Counted from the stretch's first letter, positions 2,199 through 61,592 are shown. The stretch: DNA of 64,000 bases from an uncultured Gammaproteobacteria bacterium (GCA_964582615.1 CAZORP010000005.1:11994-75993), one strand, 5' to 3'. The notes: generated from the letters alone by a model not told the origin. Numbers and translations: made by a program.

Positions 2199-2528
2199 GG
2201 TGCACGGAGAACTGTAACCAGTCATCTCGTCTCACCGTTCTGAACTCGTCCAACGTGTGGAGCCATGAGAAGGCGTGTGAGGTAACCCACATGCCTTGTC
2301 AAAAAGTCGTCATTGAAAAATGGCGATTTTTTTGTTTAATCCTCGAGCGGAAAGCGACTCTTGGTAACCTACTCAACAATCGAAGCACCCGAGACGCAAA
2401 ATCGTCGAATTTTTCTCAAACAGCCGAAAGTTAGTTTTTGCCTTATTTTTTTCGGTTCGATCCTCAGACAGGGTTTCGAAATTCCGAGACTTCGAGAATT
2501 CATCAAAAGTTGCTATGATTCAAGTACC

Positions 2529-14488: not shown

Positions 14489-15863
14489 CTCAGGACTTCT
14501 TACCACTACAGAAGGAGGGGCTGGAGGCATCATTGGATACGCTTCTTCACCACTTGAAAATACAAGAATAACCATTGATGACAGCTTCTCTCGAGCATCG
14601 TACGGAACTTCAGGATGGCCAAGTATTAACGCTTATTCCACAGAATTCCCTCCACAGGTTAGTAACTTCTCCTTCGATGCAACCGCGGCAGATACGCTTA
14701 TTTGTGACCAAGAAGAAGCTTTTTCCTGCACTGTTGTTAATGAATCGGCAGATGAAGATGATTTCTTCTTTATAACAACACATAGCCCAATGGACTCTTG
14801 GGATTTTGATGATGTGTGGCAAGAAGAAACCGATGCCCTTCCAACGCTCAGAGTTGTGTATACCTATACCGAGCCCCTCGTCACAACGACTCCCGCACAT
14901 GGACGAGCATCTCATCGCGCCACGCTTTCAGGAGAAATTCTTGATAACGGCGGAGCCGCAGTTACCGAAGTTGGCGTTATTTACGGAACAACACGAGAGT
15001 ACGGTAACACCGTATCAGACGAGGGATTCTTTGAAGCCGGCAGTTTCGATGTTACCGTAAGCGGACTTCACTGCGGAAGAACCTACTATTACCGCGCTTT
15101 TGCAATAAACCAAATGGGCACCACGCTCGGAAGAAGTGAAACCTTCAGAACCTCAAGTTGCGACGATGACACCCCATCATCGGGAGGAGGATCGTCATCA
15201 TTGCCGTCTATACCAGACGCTTCCAATGAAGACTCCTCAGAAGAGGCTACACCAGAAGACACATCATCAGGCGAAGAATCGTCAACCGAGGAGGAGGAAG
15301 ATGAGGAGCAATCCCCCATCCACCGCGATGACGCAACATCTTCCTACGACACCTCTCGTCAACGATTTGTTGCAGAAGATTCTGGAGAAGTAGATAGCTC
15401 AGGTCGAGCATTGTCACGTGTTGCTTCAGGATGGTTTGTTCGCAGTGAACAGTTCTCAACGGTGTACTACATTGATAGCTCTTATGTACGTCATCCACTT
15501 TGGGATACACAAACGTTCTTTACATGGGCAGATTCATGGGATGACATTACCTGGGTTACCGATGCTACCCTTGCAACCATGCCCCTTGGAAAGCCAGTGC
15601 TTCCTAAGTCTGGAGTGGTGCTTGTGAAACTTGAGAGTGATCCTTCGGTATATGCGGTAGATGAAGATACTTCAGGAAACAGTATCCTTCGCCGCGTTCC
15701 TTCCGAAGAAGATGCTCGTGCACTCTTTGGATCTTCTTGGCAGTCGTACGTCATTGATATTCCTCCTACGATCTTCCCTCACTTTGGTAAGGGATCTCCC
15801 CTGACCAAGGATGAGGCATGGGATGCGGGAGGGATGAAGGAACGAGCATTGTTAAGCCTTTAA
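14460..15863 (+). CDS. Giant surface protein A, 3' part (GTG-opened frame): more GLUG-like repeats, an Fn3-like domain, an acidic S/E-rich linker and the C-terminal domain shared with protein B
   Basis: Continues the repeats (GGAGGIIGYASS) in a different frame. Fn3-like GRTYYYRAFAINQMG. The last ~176 codons are identical to the end of the 21112-24552 ORF. Confidence 0.7.
   Translation: MTLRLISAYSSGLLTTTEGGAGGIIGYASSPLENTRITIDDSFSRASYGTSGWPSINAYSTEFPPQVSNFSFDATAADTLICDQEEAFSCTVVNESADEDDFFFITTHSPMDSWDFDDVWQEETDALPTLRVVYTYTEPLVTTTPAHGRASHRATLSGEILDNGGAAVTEVGVIYGTTREYGNTVSDEGFFEAGSFDVTVSGLHCGRTYYYRAFAINQMGTTLGRSETFRTSSCDDDTPSSGGGSSSLPSIPDASNEDSSEEATPEDTSSGEESSTEEEEDEEQSPIHRDDATSSYDTSRQRFVAEDSGEVDSSGRALSRVASGWFVRSEQFSTVYYIDSSYVRHPLWDTQTFFTWADSWDDITWVTDATLATMPLGKPVLPKSGVVLVKLESDPSVYAVDEDTSGNSILRRVPSEEDARALFGSSWQSYVIDIPPTIFPHFGKGSPLTKDEAWDAGGMKERALLSL
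15309..15836 (+). repeat. 528-bp perfect direct repeat, copy 1 (3' module of giant gene A)
   Basis: Identical line by line to 23989-24516 (offset 8680 bp); identity breaks at both flanks. Confidence 0.95.
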
Positions 15864-24300: not shown

Positions 24301-24552
24301 CTTGTGAAACTTGAGAGTGATCCTTCGGTATATGCGGTAGATGAAGATACTTCAGGAAACAGTATCCTTCGCCGCGTTCCTTCCGAAGAAGATGCTCGTG
24401 CACTCTTTGGATCTTCTTGGCAGTCGTACGTCATTGATATTCCTCCTACGATCTTCCCTCACTTTGGTAAGGGATCTCCCCTGACCAAGGATGAGGCATG
24501 GGATGCGGGAGGGATGCTCTCTCGCGCACAGATTTCCGCCGCATCGTTATAG
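20930..24552 (+). CDS. Giant surface protein B, 3' part: completes the LamG domain (..GRLDDVFLFNRALQSDEVLSLMDAGENP), then more PbH1 repeats with NYWG..SGP motifs, Ig/Fn3-like domains and the shared C-terminal domain. The frame is open from ~20930; the first ATG is at 21112.
   Basis: The canonical LamG terminal motif lies in the +2 frame immediately after the break. Beta-helix repeats follow (NTISESTYGIRSYGG, NNISYNDEDGLNLDEG). Confidence 0.75.
23989..24516 (+). repeat. 528-bp perfect direct repeat, copy 2 (3' module of giant gene B)
   Basis: Identical to 15309-15836. Confidence 0.95.
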
Positions 24553-31569: not shown

Positions 31570-31607
31570 GAGTTGCAAAAATTTGCTACGCTCGCAAAGG
31601 AGGTGAC

Positions 31608-31991
31608 ATGGCAAGACCCTGGACGACACCCTGCGTCGGCAGGATGATCACCCGCCGATGCTTAGAACTCCCCCAGAGCCGACTGGGGAGAATTCAGCTC
31701 CTAGGAGATCTCATACTCCTCGGAGCTGTGCTCGACGAAGAGCTCGTCGAGCTTTCGTGCAACAAGCAGGTCGACGCGAAATTCTCCTCCCGCGAAGCCT
31801 CGGCAACGCTTCGCGTCATGGAGGCCCTCGGTCGCGATGATGAGCAGCCCGCGAGCTACGAGTGCCAAGAAGCACTCGTTGGTGCTATCAGCGCCCTAAC
31901 GACGCCTCAGGGCGAGTTCATGCTCGGGGTATGGACTTTCAGGGGTATCTACCTCCTCGCTCCCCTGGATTCTTTGCCGGAGGAGTGTTAG
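31608..31991 (+). CDS. Small GC3-rich hypothetical protein (127 aa) with a perfect SD and its own terminator; possibly horizontally acquired
   Basis: AAGGAGGTGA lies 1 nt upstream of the ATG. Codon third positions are strongly G/C, unlike neighbouring genes. A hairpin terminator lies at 31993-32026. Confidence 0.4.
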   Translation: MARPWTTPCVGRMITRRCLELPQSRLGRIQLLGDLILLGAVLDEELVELSCNKQVDAKFSSREASATLRVMEALGRDDEQPASYECQEALVGAISALTTPQGEFMLGVWTFRGIYLLAPLDSLPEEC

Positions 31992-32026
31992 GCTAACGTC
32001 CAATACTCTTGGACGTTTCTTTTTTT

Positions 32027-33196
32027 ATGTCATCACCAACCCTTTGCCCAAACGCCGACGTCTGCGGAAGTTGCGGATGGAGCCATATTGCCTACGAACA
32101 TCAGCTCACACAAAAACAAGCCGATATCAATGCCTCCTTCGCGCTCAAGGAACTCCCCTATACCGTAAATGCCATACACGCATCTCCAAAAATCGATCAC
32201 TATCGTAACCGCATGGATTTTGTCATCGATTGGCAAGGCAGTGTGGGACTACGCGAACAAGGAAAGTGGTGGCGCGTCATTGATAATCACCCCTGCTTCC
32301 TCGCCGATGAGCGAATTGATGAACTCTTTGCCGTGTGTCGATCTTGGGCGAAAACCTGCGGACTCTCTTTCTTTGATCGAAAGGCAATAACAGGAACTTT
32401 GCGCTACGCGGTTATTCGCACAACAACACAAAAAGAAAGCATGGTAACTATTGTCACGAGTGCTCCGGAAAATTCTGAACACGAGATTCGCATTACCGCT
32501 ACGCTCCACGATCTCGTGAAGAATCTTGAAGACACCCATAAAGATGGCCATCTTACCGTACTTTGGGCGATTAACCACACCCCATCGGACGTTTCACATG
32601 GAGGGGAGTATCGCATTATTTCAGGAAAGGGATTTATTGAGGAAGAAATCGCCAATGTACGCTATCGCATTTCACCAAACGCCTTCTTCCAAACTAATCC
32701 GCATGCCGCCCCCCTTCTTCTTGATGCCGTAACTCGAGCCCTCGGAGATCTCTCGGGAAAAACCTTCCTTGATCTTTACTGCGGAACAGGATTCTTCTCC
32801 CTTGCACTTGCAGGCAAGGCAAAAAAAACTCTTGGTATCGAAATCGTTCCAGAAGCTATCGATGACGCACGGCAAAATGCAATGATCAATCATCTTGAAG
32901 ACAAGGTCACCTACCTTGCACAACCCACTGAACAGGTCGATTGGCTAAGCTATCAACCCGACATCGTACTTCTTGATCCTCCACGTGCAGGACTTCATCC
33001 CTCAACGCTTGAAACCCTCAAGGATCCTCGGGCACCTCAAGATATTGTTTACGTGTCTTGCAACTATAAAAATCTTGCACGAGAAATGGCACTCCTTAAG
33101 GAGTTTTATACCGTAACCTTCATGGAGGCTATTGACATGTTTCCCCACACACCACACGTTGAAGTTGTTGCAACTCTTAAAAAACGCTCCTCCTAG
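32027..33196 (+). CDS. 23S rRNA (uracil-5-)-methyltransferase RlmD/RumA-like (Fe-S cluster plus class I SAM methyltransferase)
   Basis: Cys cluster CPNADVCGSCGW; SAM motif LDLYCGTGFFSLALAG; VLLDPPRAG. The ATG at 32027 is preferred over the TTG at 32009, which lies inside the upstream terminator. Confidence 0.85.
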   Translation: MSSPTLCPNADVCGSCGWSHIAYEHQLTQKQADINASFALKELPYTVNAIHASPKIDHYRNRMDFVIDWQGSVGLREQGKWWRVIDNHPCFLADERIDELFAVCRSWAKTCGLSFFDRKAITGTLRYAVIRTTTQKESMVTIVTSAPENSEHEIRITATLHDLVKNLEDTHKDGHLTVLWAINHTPSDVSHGGEYRIISGKGFIEEEIANVRYRISPNAFFQTNPHAAPLLLDAVTRALGDLSGKTFLDLYCGTGFFSLALAGKAKKTLGIEIVPEAIDDARQNAMINHLEDKVTYLAQPTEQVDWLSYQPDIVLLDPPRAGLHPSTLETLKDPRAPQDIVYVSCNYKNLAREMALLKEFYTVTFMEAIDMFPHTPHVEVVATLKKRSS

Positions 33197-47903: not shown

Positions 47904-49703
47904 ATGGATATTCGCAATATCGCCATCATCGCCCACGTTGACCACGGCAAAACAACCCTCGTTGACGCCATGCTTAAACAGTCAGGAACCTTTTCAGATC
48001 GTGAGGAGGTAGAAACCTGCGTCATGGACTCTAACGAACTCGAACGCGAGCGTGGAATCACCATTTACGCAAAAAATACCGCCATCATGGTTGATGGAAA
48101 TAAAATCAACATCGTCGACACCCCGGGTCACGCCGACTTCGGATCCGAAGTTGAGCGTGTTTTGCGCATGGTCGACTCCGTTCTTCTTCTTGTTGACGCC
48201 TACGAAGGACCAATGCCACAAACAAAATTCGTTCTTCGCAAATCCCTCGCGCTTGGCCTTAAACCAATTGTCGTACTTAACAAAATCGATAAACCAACTG
48301 CACGTCCAGACTGGGTGCTCGACCAGGTTTTTGACCTTTTCGTTGAGCTTGGTGCAAATGACGATCAGTTGAACTTTACCTACCTTTACGCCATCGGTCG
48401 TGATGGAGTTGCAAAGCGTGAACTTACCGATGAAAGCAAAGATCTTCGCCCACTTTTTGACATTATCCTCAACCAAGTTCCACCCGCAGCAAGCGACACC
48501 TCCAAAGAGCTCCGCATGCAAATTGCAAACCTCAAGTACGACAACTATGTTGGCCGTTTGGGTGTTGGGCGCATTTACGAAGGTATCGTTAAAAACGGCA
48601 TGACCGTTACCGCAATTAAGCCAGACGGAAGCCGCTATAGCGGAAAAATCAGCAAAATCTATACGCATCGTGGACTTGAAAAAATCGAAGTTCAGGAAGC
48701 TGTCGCGGGAGATATCGTGCAAATCGCAGGACTTTCTCAAATTTACGTAGGAGAAACCATCGCTGGAAATGCGCAAGCAGAGGCACTCCCAACACTCGCC
48801 ATCGATGCACCAACGTTGACCATGAACTTCATGCCAAACAGTTCGCCGTTTGCTGGACGCGAGGGATCTCTTGTTACCTCACGTCAAATTCGCGATCGTC
48901 TTGAGCGAGAACTTGAAACTAACGTAGGACTTCACATTGATTTTCCTGATGGAGATGGAGAGTTCAAGGTTTCTGGACGTGGAGAAATGCACCTCTCCGT
49001 GCTTATTGAGCAGATGCGTCGTGAGGGCTTTGAATTACAAGTTTCCCAGCCTCAAGTTATCATGAAGGAAGAGAATGGGGTTGTTTTTGAACCTGTTGAA
49101 AGCGTTATCGTTGACGTTCCTGATGAATTCTCAGGAACCGTTATCGAAAAGCTTGGTCGTCGCAAGGGAGAAATGCGCAACATGCACGCAGAAAACGGAT
49201 CTACTCGCCTTGAATACGTTGTCCCTACGCGAGGACTTCTTGGCTACCGAACCGAGTTCATGACTGACACCAAGGGACAAGGAACACTCGCCCACAACTT
49301 CGCAGAATATGCTCCATGGAAGGGAGATATCGAGCGTCGCTCCACCGGATCAATCATTTCAGGATTTACCGGAGTTACCACCGCATATGCACTTGAAGGC
49401 CTTCAAGATCGCGGACCACTCTTTGTCTCCCCGGGTGTTGACGTGTACGAAGGCATGGTCATTGGAGCATCCATGAAAGAGTCCATGACGGTGAACGCTA
49501 TTCGTGAAAAGAAACTCACGAACATGCGCTCGGCGGGAGCAGAAGACCTTACCCGTCTTACGCCACCTATCGACATGAACCTTGAACGCGCACTTGAATA
49601 TATCGAAGGTGATGAGTACGTTGAAGTGACACCAAAGTCCGTTCGCATTCGCAAAAAGTACCTTACCGAAACTGATCGCAAGCGCGCTGATCGCAGTGCA
49701 TAA
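47904..49703 (+). CDS. typA: Translational GTPase TypA/BipA
   Basis: [21 protein letters not shown]; EF-G-like domains; 599 aa. Convergent terminators lie at 49704-49780. Confidence 0.9.
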
Positions 49704-49793
49704 TAAAAAATACCCACCTCATCTGAGTGTGGGTATTTTTATAAAAAACAGGACATTGCCAACGATGACAATGTCCTGTACGAGAGGTGCAGG

Positions 49794-50258
49794 TTACCTG
49801 AGGTTTAACCTCCACATCCGAGCGAGATCCGCCTCAGTGAGGCTTGCAGTCAATCCTACCCGCCAAACCCCACCATCAAACGAGATCCACCGGTCTCGCT
49901 TCTTCGGATTCGGCGACCCCCAGGAAACCTCCGTCACCACGACAGGATCCCATCTCCCCTGTACCCCCCCTCGGTTAAAATACATCCAGAGAAGCGTCTC
50001 TGGAGGTGATGGCAACTCCTCCGAAGCGGGGGTTGCCATCACCTCCCGCATTCCGGAGGTGGTGAAATAGTTCTTCCCGCCCTTTGGGGCAAATGGGGAC
50101 CAAAGAACCCCATTGAATATCTCCCTCTCCTCGGGGGAGAAGAGAAAATCCATCACCCTCTCCCTCCCCCAGTGGGGAATTTGGCCTTCAGGCCACAAAA
50201 AGTGAGCCCCAATCCCTGGGAACGAACGAAGCGCGAACGGAACAAATAGAGCAGCCAT
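49794..50258 (-). CDS. Hypothetical protein (~154 aa)
   Basis: The internal ATG with AAGGAG 7 nt upstream is preferred over the 50291 start. Confidence 0.45.
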   Translation of the reverse strand: MAALFVPFALRSFPGIGAHFLWPEGQIPHWGRERVMDFLFSPEEREIFNGVLWSPFAPKGGKNYFTTSGMREVMATPASEELPSPPETLLWMYFNRGGVQGRWDPVVVTEVSWGSPNPKKRDRWISFDGGVWRVGLTASLTEADLARMWRLNLR

Positions 50259-50384
50259 GACAATCTCCTTGAAAAAGTCTTTTATCGACATGATAAAAGA
50301 CCGCTCATACTAACAAAAATCCCCCTTTCTTGCAATTGCGCAAAACTAAAAAAACACCCACTGGGTGTTTTTTTGATGACAATA

Positions 50385-54225: not shown

Positions 54226-54433
54226 ACAGCTATGCTAAGAGTAGCCTGAAAGCGCAACCCTCGCAACTTTACATACATCCCTTATTCTGCTAAAATTTCC
54301 CGTTATTTGGGACAGCGAGCAGGTACTCTTTCCAAGAGAACTCGCCCGTTACGCTCCAAGCAGGGCCGACCTCCACACCCTTCGAGGGTTCGGACGTCTG
54401 CTTCGGACAACCAATGACACTCGTCATCCTAGC

Positions 54434-54697
54434 TTAGGGTGACGTTTTTTCTTTTTCCTCTTTGAGACGACGGATTTTCTCACTCCTGCCACGGTTGTAT
54501 TCTCCCGCATCGCCATTAGAACGGATAACTCTATGACATGGAATCGTTGGATCGTAATTTTTCTTTAAAATACTTCCAACTGCACGATACGCCCGGGGAC
54601 TACCCGCACGCTCGGCGACTTCGCGATACGTAGCAACCTCTCCCTCGGGAATACAACGAACAACATCATGTACCCGCTGAGTGAATGTTTTTTTCAT
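54434..54697 (-). CDS. Methylated-DNA--protein-cysteine methyltransferase family (C-terminal domain only, 87 aa)
   Basis: PCHRV active-site motif. Confidence 0.7.
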   Translation of the reverse strand: MKKTFTQRVHDVVRCIPEGEVATYREVAERAGSPRAYRAVGSILKKNYDPTIPCHRVIRSNGDAGEYNRGRSEKIRRLKEEKEKTSP

Positions 54698-59311: not shown

Positions 59312-59902
59312 CTATCGCCTCCCCCACCTCGCCAAAAAACGCCTCCACGCTGAGGGGCTATTTTTAGAATAAACACAGGGGCATCCTTTGCAGGCGCCGG
59401 ATTTTTCAGGAAGCCTGTACGATGCACAGCACACCTTTTTTATTCGTTTACGACCAAAAAATACGAGAACATCAGCCCATAGGCGGGATAGCTTTGGGCG
59501 ATCACGAAAATCATGAGGAATCTCCTCTTCGTAGCCCTTCTCTCGAAAATACGAAACCCAAGAACTTCCCTCGGCTACCGTCGTCTTCACAAGAAATGCC
59601 TCAGGAGAAAGTCCCCCGAGTCGCTCAAACTTTTTCTGCTTCTTCTCAAGAACACCCGCAAATGAACCGCCAGACTGCACAACCATCGCCTCAAGAACCT
59701 CGCACACATCAGCGGCTTCAGAAAGAAGATCTTCCAGCGTTGTTGCTGTAGAAAATTCTTCAGCTTCTTCGCGAAGTTTTCGCAAGAGCTCTTGGTGAAA
59801 TTCCTGAGTATCTAGAGTTTTTGTGACGATATTTTCACCCTCAGAACGTATACGCTCTGGAAGCTTTTCACGAACAAGTTTTTGAAGAAGAAATGTTGGC
59901 AT
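59312..59902 (-). CDS. MazG-like nucleotide pyrophosphohydrolase-like protein with a Cys-rich basic C-terminal tail
   Basis: N-terminal KLVREKLPERI resembles the MazG/HisE-like all-alpha NTP-PPase family. The tail is ..CCASYRLPEKSGACKGCPC. Confidence 0.4.
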   Translation of the reverse strand: MPTFLLQKLVREKLPERIRSEGENIVTKTLDTQEFHQELLRKLREEAEEFSTATTLEDLLSEAADVCEVLEAMVVQSGGSFAGVLEKKQKKFERLGGLSPEAFLVKTTVAEGSSWVSYFREKGYEEEIPHDFRDRPKLSRLWADVLVFFGRKRIKKVCCASYRLPEKSGACKGCPCVYSKNSPSAWRRFLARWGRR

Positions 59903-59905
59903 ATA

Positions 59906-60391
59906 TTACTTTCGTGAACGTTTTTGAAAAAGAAACACCATAATTGCCAATAGTACACCAACACTCACGTACCCGACACCCCTCCAGGGAATAGCAAGCA
60001 CGGAGGGCTGTACAATCTCTTCGCTGGTGAAATCGGAAGAAATCTCTTTTGTTCCCGAACAAAGTGTCGTTTGCAAGTCGCCATCAGCATCAATTGTGGC
60101 AAAAATTTCATAGGCGACACCCTCTTCAAACATTACTCCACACGAGATCTCCTCTTGAGATGGAAGTGTAACAAAGGGGCGAAGCACGTATCGCTCACTC
60201 TTTTCTTTATCGTGAACCCTTACAAGCGCACGAGAAATGCCATTTTCCGAAGTCACCCGATCAACAACGCCTGTAAACACCACATCGGCAGAATTGAGGA
60301 GCACCTCTCGAGACTGTTCAATACACTGACAGGCGTGTGCAGAGAGGGGAAATGCTAGGAAAAGCATCAGAGCGGTAACGTATCGAAACAT
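59906..60391 (-). CDS. Secreted hypothetical protein (signal peptide; ATG at 60391)
   Basis: MFRYVTALMLFLAFPLSAHA signal peptide; the track ORF extends further upstream. Confidence 0.5.
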   Translation of the reverse strand: MFRYVTALMLFLAFPLSAHACQCIEQSREVLLNSADVVFTGVVDRVTSENGISRALVRVHDKEKSERYVLRPFVTLPSQEEISCGVMFEEGVAYEIFATIDADGDLQTTLCSGTKEISSDFTSEEIVQPSVLAIPWRGVGYVSVGVLLAIMVFLFQKRSRK

Positions 60392-60423
60392 AAGTTTTTT
60401 CTCAGTATACGTAAAATTCTTTT

Positions 60424-60452
60424 TGACGAAAAGCCAAAAAAATGCCATAATT
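60424..60452 (+). promoter_or_regulatory. Sigma-70-like promoter (TTGACG - 17 bp - CATAAT)
   Basis: Consensus-like -35 and -10 boxes with a 17-bp spacer, upstream of the structured GC-rich element. Confidence 0.4.
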
Positions 60453-60459
60453 CCAAGTT

Positions 60460-60765
60460 CGCACGCCACTTTTTGCACTTCCGCAAAAGAATACCCGTGC
60501 AAACTCGGAGGAAGTACGATCTGTCGCTTTCATTTCCGGGGACGACTCTATGAAGGGTTCGTCCCCGAAACAACCGGGGAGGCGTATTTTCGCCTCCCAG
60601 AAACCGACGGTAACACGGAGGGCGTCTGCGTCCTGGTTACCGTTGATGGGTTGGGTGTCGTGGCTAGCACGGTAGACTTCAACCCGAGCTACCCCCTTGC
60701 GACCGAAGTGGTCGACGAGGGGTAGCCCTCACCTTCCCAAATCATGGGAAGGTTTTTTTATTTTT
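60460..60765 (+). ncRNA. Candidate structured small RNA of ~300 nt (class unassigned) ending in an intrinsic terminator at 60732-60765
   Basis: GC-rich island with several perfect 7-8-bp helices (GGGGACGA/TCGTCCCC; GGAGGCG/CGCCTCC; CGGTAAC/GTTACCG; GCTACCCC/GGGGTAGC) and CCTTCCC-aaatcat-GGGAAGGttttttt. The only long ORF here starts with TTG inside the -35 box and has no in-frame ATG. Confidence 0.35.
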
Positions 60766-60848
60766 ACACCCCACTTCACAGTCCTGTGGTCACTTGCCGC
60801 GCAGAAATATTCGCGGTATATTCGCTGAAAATATTCTTAGCCTCAGTT

Positions 60849-61592
60849 ATGAAAAACTTGAGTACAAACATCTCCCTTTTCGCACTGCTTCTCTCCTTCA
60901 TTGCTTGTATCGTGAGCATTACCGCACTCACCACCTCTTCAGAGATATCCTCGATAACACAACAAGCATCACCCACAACAACAGAGCAGATACCGTCATC
61001 CGCTACCGCAACCTACACAAATAACGATCTTAGACTGCAATTTTCATACCCTGCAAACTATCAGATTTCGGAAGAACATGAACTCGCGGGTGATACTGGA
61101 AAGCTTTTACGTATCAACGTCACACGCAACAATGAAGCCCTTTTCACCGTAACCGCAACATCTTCTAACTACGATCCAAGCGCGGGAGAAGGAACCATGT
61201 CCTTTGCTGGATCTCTTGATATAAAGAATGCTCCTCAAGAAGCAGAGCGTATTGTCGGCGAACAGCTCGGCAAAATCTTTGCACCTTACCGTAGAGAGCT
61301 CGACAATCAGTCATCGATGGGATTCTTTTACGCGCCCATACAGTATGGAGCCGTAGATATCTTTGAATCACACATAGTTTCTGCGACGCACAACAACACC
61401 TACAGCACCATAAGCTTTACCAGTGGAAGCCTTTATCACGAAAGCGGCACCGAGGAAGAGCTCGCTCAGCGAGTTAACGATATTTTGACACTGAAGAATT
61501 TGCGTATGGGTGACGATTTTTACAATGAACTTTCATTGGAAAAGCGTGATGCTTATAACCGCATTTTGGAAAGCGTTCTTTTAGCCGACTAG
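60849..61592 (+). CDS. Secreted/membrane-anchored hypothetical protein
   Basis: N-terminal signal/TM MKNLSTNISLFALLLSFIACIVSITAL. A bidirectional terminator lies at 61611-61637. Confidence 0.55.
   Translation: MKNLSTNISLFALLLSFIACIVSITALTTSSEISSITQQASPTTTEQIPSSATATYTNNDLRLQFSYPANYQISEEHELAGDTGKLLRINVTRNNEALFTVTATSSNYDPSAGEGTMSFAGSLDIKNAPQEAERIVGEQLGKIFAPYRRELDNQSSMGFFYAPIQYGAVDIFESHIVSATHNNTYSTISFTSGSLYHESGTEEELAQRVNDILTLKNLRMGDDFYNELSLEKRDAYNRILESVLLAD

What the first reader, a model, noticed from the sequence alone, without database searches (positions are those of the whole stretch)
60423..60765. GC-rich, multi-helix ~300-nt element with its own promoter and terminator: candidate unclassified ncRNA
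The element sits between a secreted-protein gene on the minus strand and another on the plus strand. The region has a near-consensus promoter (TTGACG-17-CATAAT at 60424-60452). It contains a run of perfect helices: GGGGACGA...TCGTCCCC, GGAGGCG-tatttt-CGCCTCC, CGGTAAC...GTTACCG, CGTG-gctag-CACG and GCTACCCC...GGGGTAGC with a nested CGACC/GGTCG. It ends in a strong intrinsic terminator (CCTTCCC-aaatcat-GGGAAGG + T7). GC content is visibly higher than the flanks. The only long ORF overlapping it (60423-60725) starts at a TTG that is the -35 box and has no in-frame ATG. I could not match it confidently to RNase P, tmRNA, SRP, 6S or common riboswitch consensus sequences from memory. It could be a leader or riboswitch for the downstream secreted protein, or a stand-alone sRNA.
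Basis: seen in the sequence. Interest (0 to 1): 0.55.

Follow-up and report, generated by a model that had tools for sequence, protein, structure and literature searches.

The report
Orphan hairpin-rich small RNA candidate
A roughly 300-base, GC-rich stretch with its own strong promoter and terminator folds into six or seven very stable hairpins and matches no known RNA or protein family. No relative was found anywhere, so it remains an unclassified small-RNA candidate, not a demonstrated new RNA class.

Summary
A near-consensus extended -10 promoter lies at 60423-60451 and a 9-bp terminator with T7 at 60731-60760. Between them is a 57-62% GC block in a 46% GC genome. The + strand folds at -140 kcal/mol, z = -8.1 against dinucleotide shuffles.

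Rfam 15 and ARAGORN find nothing. The architecture does not fit RNase P, tmRNA, SRP or 6S RNA. The 100-aa ORF has no usable start codon, no credible homologue, a low-confidence structure model and no strand-specific codon signal.

No homologue of the element turned up in related Patescibacteria loci, metagenome or viral pattern scans, phages or plasmids. Both flanking secreted-protein genes are themselves orphans among 5.8 billion proteins. The region upstream of ProRS differs in every relative examined. Covariation could therefore not be tested.

No antiterminator is evident, so a stand-alone RNA is favoured over a leader.

Two more GC-rich, hairpin-dense, uncalled islands lie in the same window, and one lies in a relative. 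The element may therefore belong to a lineage-wide phenomenon that need not be RNA function.

Verdict: real feature, plausible orphan sRNA, function unresolved, moderate-to-low interest.

The parts
60423..60451 (+). Sigma-70-type promoter: -35 TTGACG, 17-nt spacer, TG-extended -10 CATAAT. Inferred transcription start is about 60458-60460.
   Evidence: 10 of 12 matches with TG; only 5 sites at >= 10/12 in 20 kb on both strands.
60461..60500 (+). 5' hairpin H0: outer stem GCACG/CGUGC, inner stem UUUUUGC/GCAAAAG, loop ACUUCC. The loop is complementary to GGAAGU at 60510-60515 and to the H5 loop GAAGU.
   Evidence: Minimum-free-energy fold. Pairing probabilities. The loop complementarity was read from the sequence and is at chance level.
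60501..60536 (+). Mostly unpaired linker AAACUCGGAGGAAGUACGAUCUGUCGCUUUCAUUUCC. It contains an SD-like GGAGGA followed 6 nt later by an in-frame ATC, which is not a canonical start codon.
   Evidence: Unpaired probabilities; sequence.
60537..60567 (+). Hairpin H1: 13 bp with one bulged U and loop AUGA. It shares the frame CCGGGGA...UCCCCGAAAC with H2.
60577..60598 (+). Hairpin H2: GGGAGGCG-UAUUUU-CGCCUCCC, 8 bp, followed by AGAAAC.
60605..60645 (+). Hairpin H3: outer stem CGACGGUAAC/GUUACCGUUG and inner stem AGGGCG/CGUCCU. It contains G-U pairs.
60648..60685 (+). Hairpin H4: outer stem GGGUUGGGU.../...ACUUCAACCC and inner stem UCGUG-GCUAG-CACGG. It contains G-U pairs.
60688..60726 (+). Hairpin H5: outer stem GCUACCCC/GGGGUAGC, nested CGACC-GAAGU-GGUCG.
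60731..60760 (+). Intrinsic terminator: 9-bp stem, 5-nt loop, T7. The T run is on the + strand only.
   Evidence: Pairing probability is about 1.
60423..60725 (+). 100-codon open frame. Most likely a by-product of GC-rich, self-complementary sequence; a 108-codon open frame also runs on the - strand.

Best explanation
The element is an independently transcribed, lineage-specific non-coding RNA of about 300 nt, running from about 60459 to 60760 on the + strand, in a Patescibacteria (Minisyncoccia-like) genome.

Shown:
- a strong extended -10 promoter;
- a strong, apparently constitutive intrinsic terminator;
- a body of six very stable hairpins plus a roughly 35-nt unpaired 5'-proximal linker.

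Inferred:
- The RNA acts in trans rather than as a leader of the downstream gene.
- It more likely serves as a stable protein-binding or decoy scaffold than as a classical seed-pairing riboregulator.

Reasons for the scaffold reading:
- Almost all of the RNA is locked in helices.
- Two short motifs recur: CCGGGGA...UCCC(C/A)GAAAC framing H1 and H2, and AAC(U/A)CGGAGG at 60502 and 60612.
- No outstanding mRNA target was seen in the window.

The specific partner and function are unknown.
For: - Promoter at 10/12 with TG. Such sites occur about once per 8 kb of strand.
- Terminator with a T7 run on the + strand only.
- z = -8.07 on + against -6.06 on -. The core is -105.2 kcal/mol on + against -96.0 on -.
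- Hairpins have unpaired probability near 0, and no alternative pairing captures the terminator's 5' arm.
- No gene was called on the element in the independent Logan assembly, which is sequence-identical.
- The ORF lacks a start codon and homologues, has pLDDT 46, and its codon score equals that of its antisense frame.
- A second promoter-like site (60794-60822, 9/12) could serve the downstream gene.
- Repeated motifs are seen.
Against: - No homologue was found in any search, so there is no covariation or conservation.
- No expression data were available.
- None of the terminal loops of the predicted hairpins is a GNRA or UNCG tetraloop, and the helices are near-perfect. That also fits young or DNA-level palindromes.
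- Three other GC-rich, hairpin-dense, uncalled islands exist: window 31575-32030, window 49700-50296, and L084 8169-8772. A generic sequence-generating process could explain them all.
- The repeated motifs are short and could be chance.
- The target scan was uninformative.
Confidence: 0.4

Rival explanations
1. The element is hairpin-dense GC-rich accessory DNA with no specific RNA function. It would be one of several such islands in this lineage, for example decaying foreign or selfish palindromic DNA, or sequence generated by local inverted duplication. It happens to lie between a promoter and a terminator.
For: - The window holds three islands with the same style, counting the element: GC 0.55-0.62, runs of perfect 7-15-bp hairpins, no called gene. 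The other two fold at z = -6.2 and -6.4.
- A fourth island lies in relative L084 (z = -5.1).
- All sit in positions that differ between relatives.
- Both strands fold well.
- Helices are nearly perfect and no conservation is seen.
Against: - The islands share no sequence, so they are not copies of one mobile element.
- No target-site duplication rises above chance.
- The promoter and terminator bracket the GC-rich block exactly and on the same strand. Given site densities, that is improbable by chance.
- The + strand is favoured energetically.
Confidence: 0.28
2. The element is a cis-regulatory 5' leader (attenuator, riboswitch or protein-controlled terminator) of the downstream secreted-protein gene at 60849-61592.
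For: - Same strand as that gene.
- The terminator ends 88 nt before the start codon.
- The intervening promoter-like site scores only 9/12, which is chance level.
- H1's 3' arm and H2's 5' arm can pair with each other: UCCCCG-AAACAAC-CGGGGA.
Against: - No antiterminator: the terminator's 5' arm stays essentially unpaired before its 3' arm is made, and the upstream hairpins are extremely stable.
- No match to any riboswitch or leader family.
- The downstream gene is an orphan with no homologue among 5.8 billion proteins, so no conserved regulon exists.
- The alternative H1/H2 hairpin is not next to a U tract.
Confidence: 0.1
3. The element is a small protein gene. Candidates are the 100- or 69-codon frame using a non-canonical start (ATC at 60519, 6 nt after GGAGGA), or the 41-codon ORF at 60550-60675. 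The latter could be a type I toxin-like mRNA whose structure sequesters its ribosome-binding site.
For: - The frame is open for 100 codons and ends 5 nt before the terminator.
- GGAGGA lies 6 nt upstream of the in-frame ATC.
- The codon score is z = 2.0-2.4 above shuffles, and per unit length this approaches the weakest real genes.
- All neighbouring genes are orphans too, so a lack of homologues is not discriminating.
Against: - No ATG, GTG or TTG start is usable: the only one before codon ~76 is the -35 box itself.
- The phmmer hits are heterogeneous repeat proteins and therefore spurious.
- No Pfam, PHROG, NCBIfam or PADLOC match.
- pLDDT is 46.
- The antisense frame scores identically, and a 108-codon frame is open on the - strand, as expected for palindromic GC-rich DNA.
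- An open 100-codon frame in one of six frames has a chance probability of about 0.14 at this GC content (own calculation).
- The ORF41 frame shows no codon signal, and the peptide lacks a 20-residue hydrophobic segment.
Confidence: 0.1
4. The element is a highly diverged copy of a housekeeping RNA (RNase P RNA, tmRNA, 6S or SRP RNA) that falls below Rfam thresholds, as documented for RNase P RNA in CPR genomes.
For: - In one study, 10 of 35 circular CPR genomes needed sub-threshold scores to detect RNase P RNA (PMC8172020).
- The length of about 300 nt is in range.
- GGAGGAAGUACG and CAGAAACCGACGG faintly resemble CR-I and CR-V.
Against: - No RNase P, tmRNA, 6S or SRP match even at E <= 10. 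ARAGORN finds nothing.
- The CR-I motif is absent within 2 mismatches.
- The candidate P4 strands are not complementary.
- The CR-V-like stretch sits mid-molecule with 160 nt after it.
- There is no P1 helix pairing the 5' and 3' ends, no T-arm or CCA, and no rod-like 6S fold.
- The element lies in a strain-specific region flanked by orphan genes, which is unlike a housekeeping gene.
Confidence: 0.03

Closest known systems
Stand-alone bacterial sRNA genes with a sigma-70 promoter and intrinsic terminator (general kind; long structured examples include RNAIII and 6S RNA)
   Same: It has its own promoter, a Rho-independent terminator with a long U tract, no translatable ORF, an intergenic location, and higher GC than the genome.
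   Different: It belongs to no described family and has no homologues. Nearly the whole body is locked in helices and no obvious seed is seen. The organism is a Patescibacteria MAG. From my own knowledge, sRNA chaperones such as Hfq are generally not reported in that group.
Protein-sequestering multi-hairpin RNAs (CsrB/RsmZ type)
   Same: It is a series of hairpins with a short sequence motif repeated between modules, and could act as a decoy.
   Different: Only two copies of each motif are present. The GGA motifs lie mostly in stems, not loops. No CsrA-type partner was identified. This is a functional analogy only.
Diverged RNase P RNA of CPR bacteria (Lui et al. 2021, PMC8172020)
   Same: Comparable length and GC enrichment, and missed by standard Rfam thresholds in this phylum.
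   Different: The P4 pseudoknot strands, the CR-I and CR-V motifs in the correct order, and a terminal P1 helix are all missing. The CM score is below E = 10.
GC-rich palindromic intergenic elements (REP/BIME of enterobacteria; GC clusters of yeast mitochondria)
   Same: It is a cluster of GC-rich hairpins in a lower-GC genome, sits in a variable intergenic position, and there are several islands per genome.
   Different: No shared consensus exists between hairpins or between islands, and the element is bracketed by its own promoter and terminator. The comparison with these families rests on my own knowledge, not on a test.
Type I toxin mRNAs (hok/sok-like)
   Same: It would be a highly structured, ~300-nt orphan transcript with a small internal ORF whose start lies inside a hairpin, in an accessory region.
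   Different: There is no hydrophobic transmembrane peptide, no antisense promoter or terminator, and no codon signal in that frame.

Membership tests
RNase P RNA (bacterial type A/B, including diverged CPR forms) | Covariance-model match to RF00010, RF00011 or the clan | tested here: not met
   No clan CL00002 hit on 60300-60900 at E <= 10. Caveat: diverged CPR forms were recovered in the cited study only after lowering the bit-score threshold to 5, which this tool cannot reach.
RNase P RNA (bacterial type A/B, including diverged CPR forms) | CR-I (GAGGAAAGUCC) and CR-V (ACAGAAnnCGGCUUA) forming the P4 pseudoknot, with CR-V near the 3' end and P1 pairing the two termini | tested here: not met
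   No CR-I match within 2 mismatches in the element. The candidate strands AAGUACG and ACCGACGG are not complementary. The CR-V-like stretch lies at position ~140 of 300. No terminal P1 is present.
tmRNA | tRNA-like domain (acceptor stem, T-arm, CCA) and a tag reading frame | tested here: not met
   ARAGORN finds only two tRNAs in the window. No Rfam tmRNA hit. No T-arm or ACCA was seen by reading the sequence.
6S RNA and SRP RNA | For 6S, a rod-like fold with a central bubble. For SRP, the helix 8 motif with a GNRA loop and conserved AGCA/GGAA. | tested here: not met
   No Rfam hit at E <= 10. The minimum-free-energy and centroid folds are a series of independent hairpins, not a rod.
Riboswitch or transcription-attenuation leader | Mutually exclusive terminator and antiterminator structures | tested here: not met
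   Folding truncated at 60744 leaves the terminator's 5' arm almost unpaired, and the upstream hairpins are unchanged.
Riboswitch or transcription-attenuation leader | A conserved aptamer upstream of a functionally coherent set of genes | tested here: not met
   No Rfam cis-regulatory match. The downstream gene has no homologue. No related element was found.
Stand-alone Rho-independent sRNA gene (general kind) | Promoter and intrinsic terminator on one strand bracketing a non-coding stretch | tested here: met
Stand-alone Rho-independent sRNA gene (general kind) | A discrete transcript detected in vivo | not testable with these tools
   No RNA-seq data are accessible.
Structured ncRNA class (Rfam-style family) | Homologues with covarying base pairs | tested here: inconclusive
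   No homologue was recovered. The only other copies are identical sequence from the same organism (L081, L082).
CRISPR, TIGR or other repeat array | Regularly spaced direct repeats | tested here: not met
   No tandem or direct repeat family in 60380-60800 beyond two 10-nt chance pairs.
Type I toxin-antitoxin | A small hydrophobic peptide ORF and an overlapping antisense RNA | tested here: not met
   ORF41 is basic and lacks a transmembrane-length hydrophobic run. No - strand promoter was found, and the only - strand terminator-like site (60598-60577, the H2 palindrome) has a weak T tail. That frame shows no codon signal.

The most novel reading that the evidence does not exclude
The element is the first seen member of a new class of large, hairpin-built non-coding RNAs specific to a Patescibacteria lineage. 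The other GC-rich hairpin islands (window 31575-32030, window 49700-50296, L084 8169-8772) would be further, sequence-unrelated members of a lineage-specific repertoire of structured RNAs encoded in variable genome regions. Possible roles include protein scaffolds, or decoys used in the episymbiotic lifestyle or against phages.
Probability: 0.12. Interest if true: 0.65.

Novelty: new member of a known kind. Interest (0 to 1): 0.35.

Why it matters
Non-coding RNAs of Patescibacteria (CPR) beyond rRNA, tRNA and RNase P appear to be little described: three full-text literature searches here returned nothing on them. A verified ~300-nt structured RNA that is strain-specific and sits among orphan secreted-protein genes would suggest that accessory regions of these reduced genomes carry RNA genes invisible to homology-based annotation. 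Several GC-rich, hairpin-dense, uncalled islands recur in this lineage, which is cheap to test genome-wide. That test could reveal either a family of new RNAs or a new kind of palindromic sequence turnover. On present evidence the element is only a good candidate.

Tried and rejected
1. Rfam 15 on the whole window at gathering thresholds, and on 60300-60900 at E <= 10, gave only junk such as miRNA and CRISPR-DR fragments.

2. ARAGORN found no tmRNA.

3. Synteny via ProRS.
- 80 GTDB loci were fetched.
- Closer relatives from ENA, Logan, NCBI and JGI have ProRS 77-82% identical.
- Genes downstream of ProRS are conserved, but the side carrying the element differs in every relative.
- nhmmer, blastn and a single-sequence covariance model (R1) found nothing.

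4. Flanking proteins as anchors. Both have only themselves in 5.8 billion proteins. p173 has no viral relative.

5. Metagenome pattern scans.
- The linker-anchored pattern found nothing.
- The relaxed motif pattern returned 16 loci.
- These are GC hairpins, other direct repeats of the motif, and tandem 21-nt GGGGAGTTCCCCGAAAC arrays.
- The R1 score of 35 bits on L098 is produced by the pattern that selected it, so it is not evidence of homology.

6. Four viral-contig pattern scans gave two chance 18-mer hits and nothing else. Phage and plasmid blastn found no match.

7. ORF100 as a protein.
- phmmer against 1.84 billion representatives gave five hits to unrelated repeat proteins, with scores inflated by summing over repeats.
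- Six-frame tblastn against all fetched loci gave nothing.
- AlphaFold2 gave pLDDT 46.

8. A target scan of translation-initiation regions in the window found no outlier.

9. A shuffle-based z-score scan of the whole window timed out. It was replaced by a GC-regressed MFE scan.

10. Structured intergenic gaps in L083, L085 and L087 looked like possible analogues but turned out to be tRNA genes.

11. The 10-nt direct repeat flanking the element (60462 and 60767) was considered as a target-site duplication. It was rejected as chance, with about 2 such pairs expected (own estimate).

Full report
**Observation**

The region reads exactly as described.
- The promoter scan finds TTGACG-17-CATAAT at 60423-60451, 10 of 12 matches with a TG extension.
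- In the surrounding 20 kb only five sites on both strands reach 10/12, and three of those have TG.
- A terminator (ACCTTCCCA-AATCA-TGGGAAGGT followed by T7) lies at 60731-60760 on the same strand.
- The block between them has GC 0.575-0.62 against a window mean of 0.459.
- The + strand RNA (60458-60762) folds at -140.1 kcal/mol against -102.2 +/- 4.7 for dinucleotide shuffles, z = -8.07.
- The - strand gives z = -6.06.
- For the hairpin core (60530-60730) the + strand is 9 kcal/mol more stable than the - strand.

The fold has these parts:
- a 5' hairpin, H0 (60461-60500);
- a largely unpaired linker (60501-60536);
- five very stable hairpins: H1 60537-60567, H2 60577-60598, H3 60605-60645, H4 60648-60685, H5 60688-60726;
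- the terminator.

Their unpaired probabilities are close to zero.

**Is it a known RNA?**

Rfam 15 at gathering thresholds finds only two tRNAs in the 64-kb window. In E-value mode on 60300-60900 it returns only sub-threshold fragments of unrelated families. ARAGORN finds no tmRNA.

CPR bacteria are documented to carry RNase P RNAs that fall below Rfam thresholds (PMC8172020), so I checked that identity by hand.
- The CR-I motif is absent within two mismatches.
- The faint CR-I-like and CR-V-like stretches cannot pair to form P4.
- The CR-V-like stretch sits mid-molecule.
- There is no terminal P1.

The series-of-hairpins fold also does not fit 6S or SRP RNA. No repeat array is present.

**Is it a gene for a protein?**

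The 100-codon frame (60423-60725) begins at the TTG of the -35 box and has no internal Met.
- A full HMMER search of 1.84 billion representatives gave five hits. All are large, unrelated repeat proteins whose scores come from summing many weak repeat matches.
- No Pfam, PHROG, NCBIfam or PADLOC family matches.
- A single-sequence AlphaFold2 model has pLDDT 46. That is uninformative but not supportive.
- A codon-usage score trained on the window's genes puts the frame at z = 2.0 above shuffles, against 3.3-5.7 for real neighbours.
- The antisense frame scores the same, and a 108-codon frame is open on the - strand. That is what palindromic GC-rich DNA produces.

One point in favour of coding: GGAGGA lies 6 nt upstream of an in-frame ATC. 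ATC is not a normal start codon. I keep coding as a minor rival.

**Organism and context**

The window is from a Patescibacteria genome.
- The best GTDB ProRS match is 68%, to a Minisyncoccia MAG.
- ENA and Logan relatives reach 82%.
- The same sequence occurs identically in Logan assemblies of SRR16481183 and SRR16481182, with no gene called on the element.

In relatives with 77-82% ProRS identity, the genes downstream of ProRS are syntenic: NTP transferase, PBP, DnaG and RpoD. The upstream side, where the element lies, is different in every case.

Both flanking secreted-protein genes are orphans among 5.8 billion proteins. The element therefore sits in a strain- or species-specific accessory stretch.

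**Search for homologues**

Every route came back empty.
- nhmmer, blastn and a covariance model built from the element (R1) found nothing in 13 Patescibacteria loci, including filter-off searches.
- Phage and plasmid blastn found nothing.
- Four viral pattern scans gave only two chance 18-mers.
- A metagenome scan anchored on the two GAAAC-containing linkers found nothing.
- A relaxed scan on the motif shared by H1 and H2 (TCCCNGAAAC...GGGGA...TCCCNGAAAC) returned 16 loci. These are GC hairpins, other direct repeats of the motif, and tandem 21-nt mini-hairpin arrays.

The similarity of those 16 loci to the element is produced by the search pattern itself, so they are not evidence of homology. 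Covariation therefore could not be tested.

**Leader or stand-alone RNA?**

When the transcript is folded up to the terminator loop, the terminator's 5' arm remains essentially unpaired and the upstream hairpins are unchanged. No antiterminator is evident. A 9/12 promoter-like site at 60794-60822 could serve the downstream gene, but that score is at chance density. I therefore favour a stand-alone RNA over a leader.

Within that reading, I lean towards a protein-binding scaffold or decoy rather than a seed-pairing regulator. The reasons are the near-total helicity, the two short repeated motifs (CCGGGGA...UCCC[C/A]GAAAC on H1 and H2; AAC[U/A]CGGAGG at 60502 and 60612), and the absence of any outstanding target among the window's translation-initiation regions. 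This step is inference, not demonstration.

**A complicating discovery**

A GC-corrected folding scan of the window and a census of perfect hairpins show the element is one of three similar islands.
- Island 31575-32030 (+): z = -6.17, about eight near-perfect hairpins, its own terminator, and an SD-ATG frame of 127 codons.
- Island 49700-50296 (-): z = -6.44, a 15-bp perfect hairpin, a promoter and two tandem terminators, and a 165-codon frame.
- Neither frame is on record as a called gene.
- Neither matches any family.
- Neither shows a codon signal as clear as real genes do; both sit below the real-gene range (z = 2.46 and 0.95 against 3.3-5.7).
- The island at 49.7-50.3 kb is absent from the syntenic position in relative L085.
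- Relative L084 has its own 604-nt uncalled GC-rich island upstream of dnaG, z = -5.1.
- The three window islands share no sequence with each other.

Either this lineage encodes many unrelated structured RNAs in variable regions, or some process generates GC-rich palindrome clusters there. The second reading is my main rival explanation.

**Verdict**

The feature is real and statistically strong.

I estimate the following probabilities:
- 0.40 for an orphan stand-alone ncRNA;
- 0.28 for non-functional hairpin-rich accessory DNA;
- 0.10 for a leader;
- 0.10 for a small protein;
- 0.03 for a diverged housekeeping RNA.

It belongs to a known general kind, a Rho-independent sRNA gene, but to no known family. 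Interest is moderate to low until a transcript or homologues are shown.

Noticed in passing
window 31575-32030 (+): A second GC-rich (about 0.60) island lies between a SpoU-like and a TrmA-like methyltransferase gene. It has about eight near-perfect hairpins, MFE -195.9 kcal/mol, z = -6.17, and a terminator at 31995-32025. It contains a 127-codon frame (31608-31991) with a strong SD (AAGGAGGTGAC-ATG). That frame has no family match, is not on record as a called gene, and gives an ambiguous codon score.
   Followed up: partly
window 49700-50330 (-): A third GC-rich island lies between convergent BipA and a 198-aa gene. It has promoter TTGCAA-17-TAGTAT, a 15-bp perfect hairpin (50002-50046), two tandem terminators (49706-49779), MFE -260.5 kcal/mol and z = -6.44. 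Its 165-codon frame (49794-50291) has no family match and no codon signal. The island is absent from the syntenic position in relative L085.
   Followed up: partly
L084 8169-8772: A relative with ProRS 80% identical has its own 604-nt uncalled island upstream of dnaG. It is GC 0.57 and hairpin-dense (z = -5.1), with only junk-like ORFs on both strands. This suggests such islands recur in the lineage.
   Followed up: partly
L098 5979-6182 (-), L100 1-170 (+), L105 2830-3060 (+): Metagenome contigs carry tandem arrays of a 21-nt mini-hairpin unit (TTGGGGAGTTCCCCGAAACYY, 8-10 copies). Each is preceded by AT-rich promoter-like sequence and ends in a T-run terminator. L105 has a second array of a different unit (GGTAAGGATACCGAAAGTTCC) immediately upstream. 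They look like repeat RNAs of unknown kind. They were found only because of the search pattern and are not shown to be related to the element.
   Followed up: no
window 54268-54452 (+): A 10/12 TG-extended promoter-like site (54268-54296) and a 10-bp terminator with T6 (54422-54450) lie on the + strand, opposite to the flanking dnaG and MGMT-like genes. This may be a ~150-nt antisense or intergenic transcript.
   Followed up: no
window 2382-2463 versus L087 243-323: An 83-nt stretch is 83% identical between the window (inside or at the start of ORF 2361-2828) and an uncalled gap in a relative with ProRS 77% identical. It contains GGATCGAACC. There is no Rfam match. It could be a conserved small gene or RNA.
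   Followed up: partly
window 59312-59902 (-): The 196-aa 'MazG/PRA-PH-like' ORF looks like a fusion or two genes. Residues 128-196 are homologous (58-62%) to separate short reading frames upstream of ProRS in L083 and L084; in L083 the match lies within a called 74-aa gene.
   Followed up: no
window 15706-15738 and 24386-24418: An identical 33-nt hairpin sequence (AAGAAGAT-17 nt-ATCTTCTT) occurs near the 3' ends of two reading frames that end at 15863 and 24552. This suggests a shared C-terminal module or a recent duplication.
   Followed up: no
window 59906-60448 (-): The pipeline's 180-aa call for the upstream secreted protein starts at an ATG that is the reverse complement of the element's -10 box. 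The 161-aa form starting at 60391 has a classical signal peptide (MFRYVTALMLFLAFPLSAHA) followed by a CxC motif that recalls TIMP/NTR-like domains. That resemblance is from memory and was not tested.
   Followed up: no
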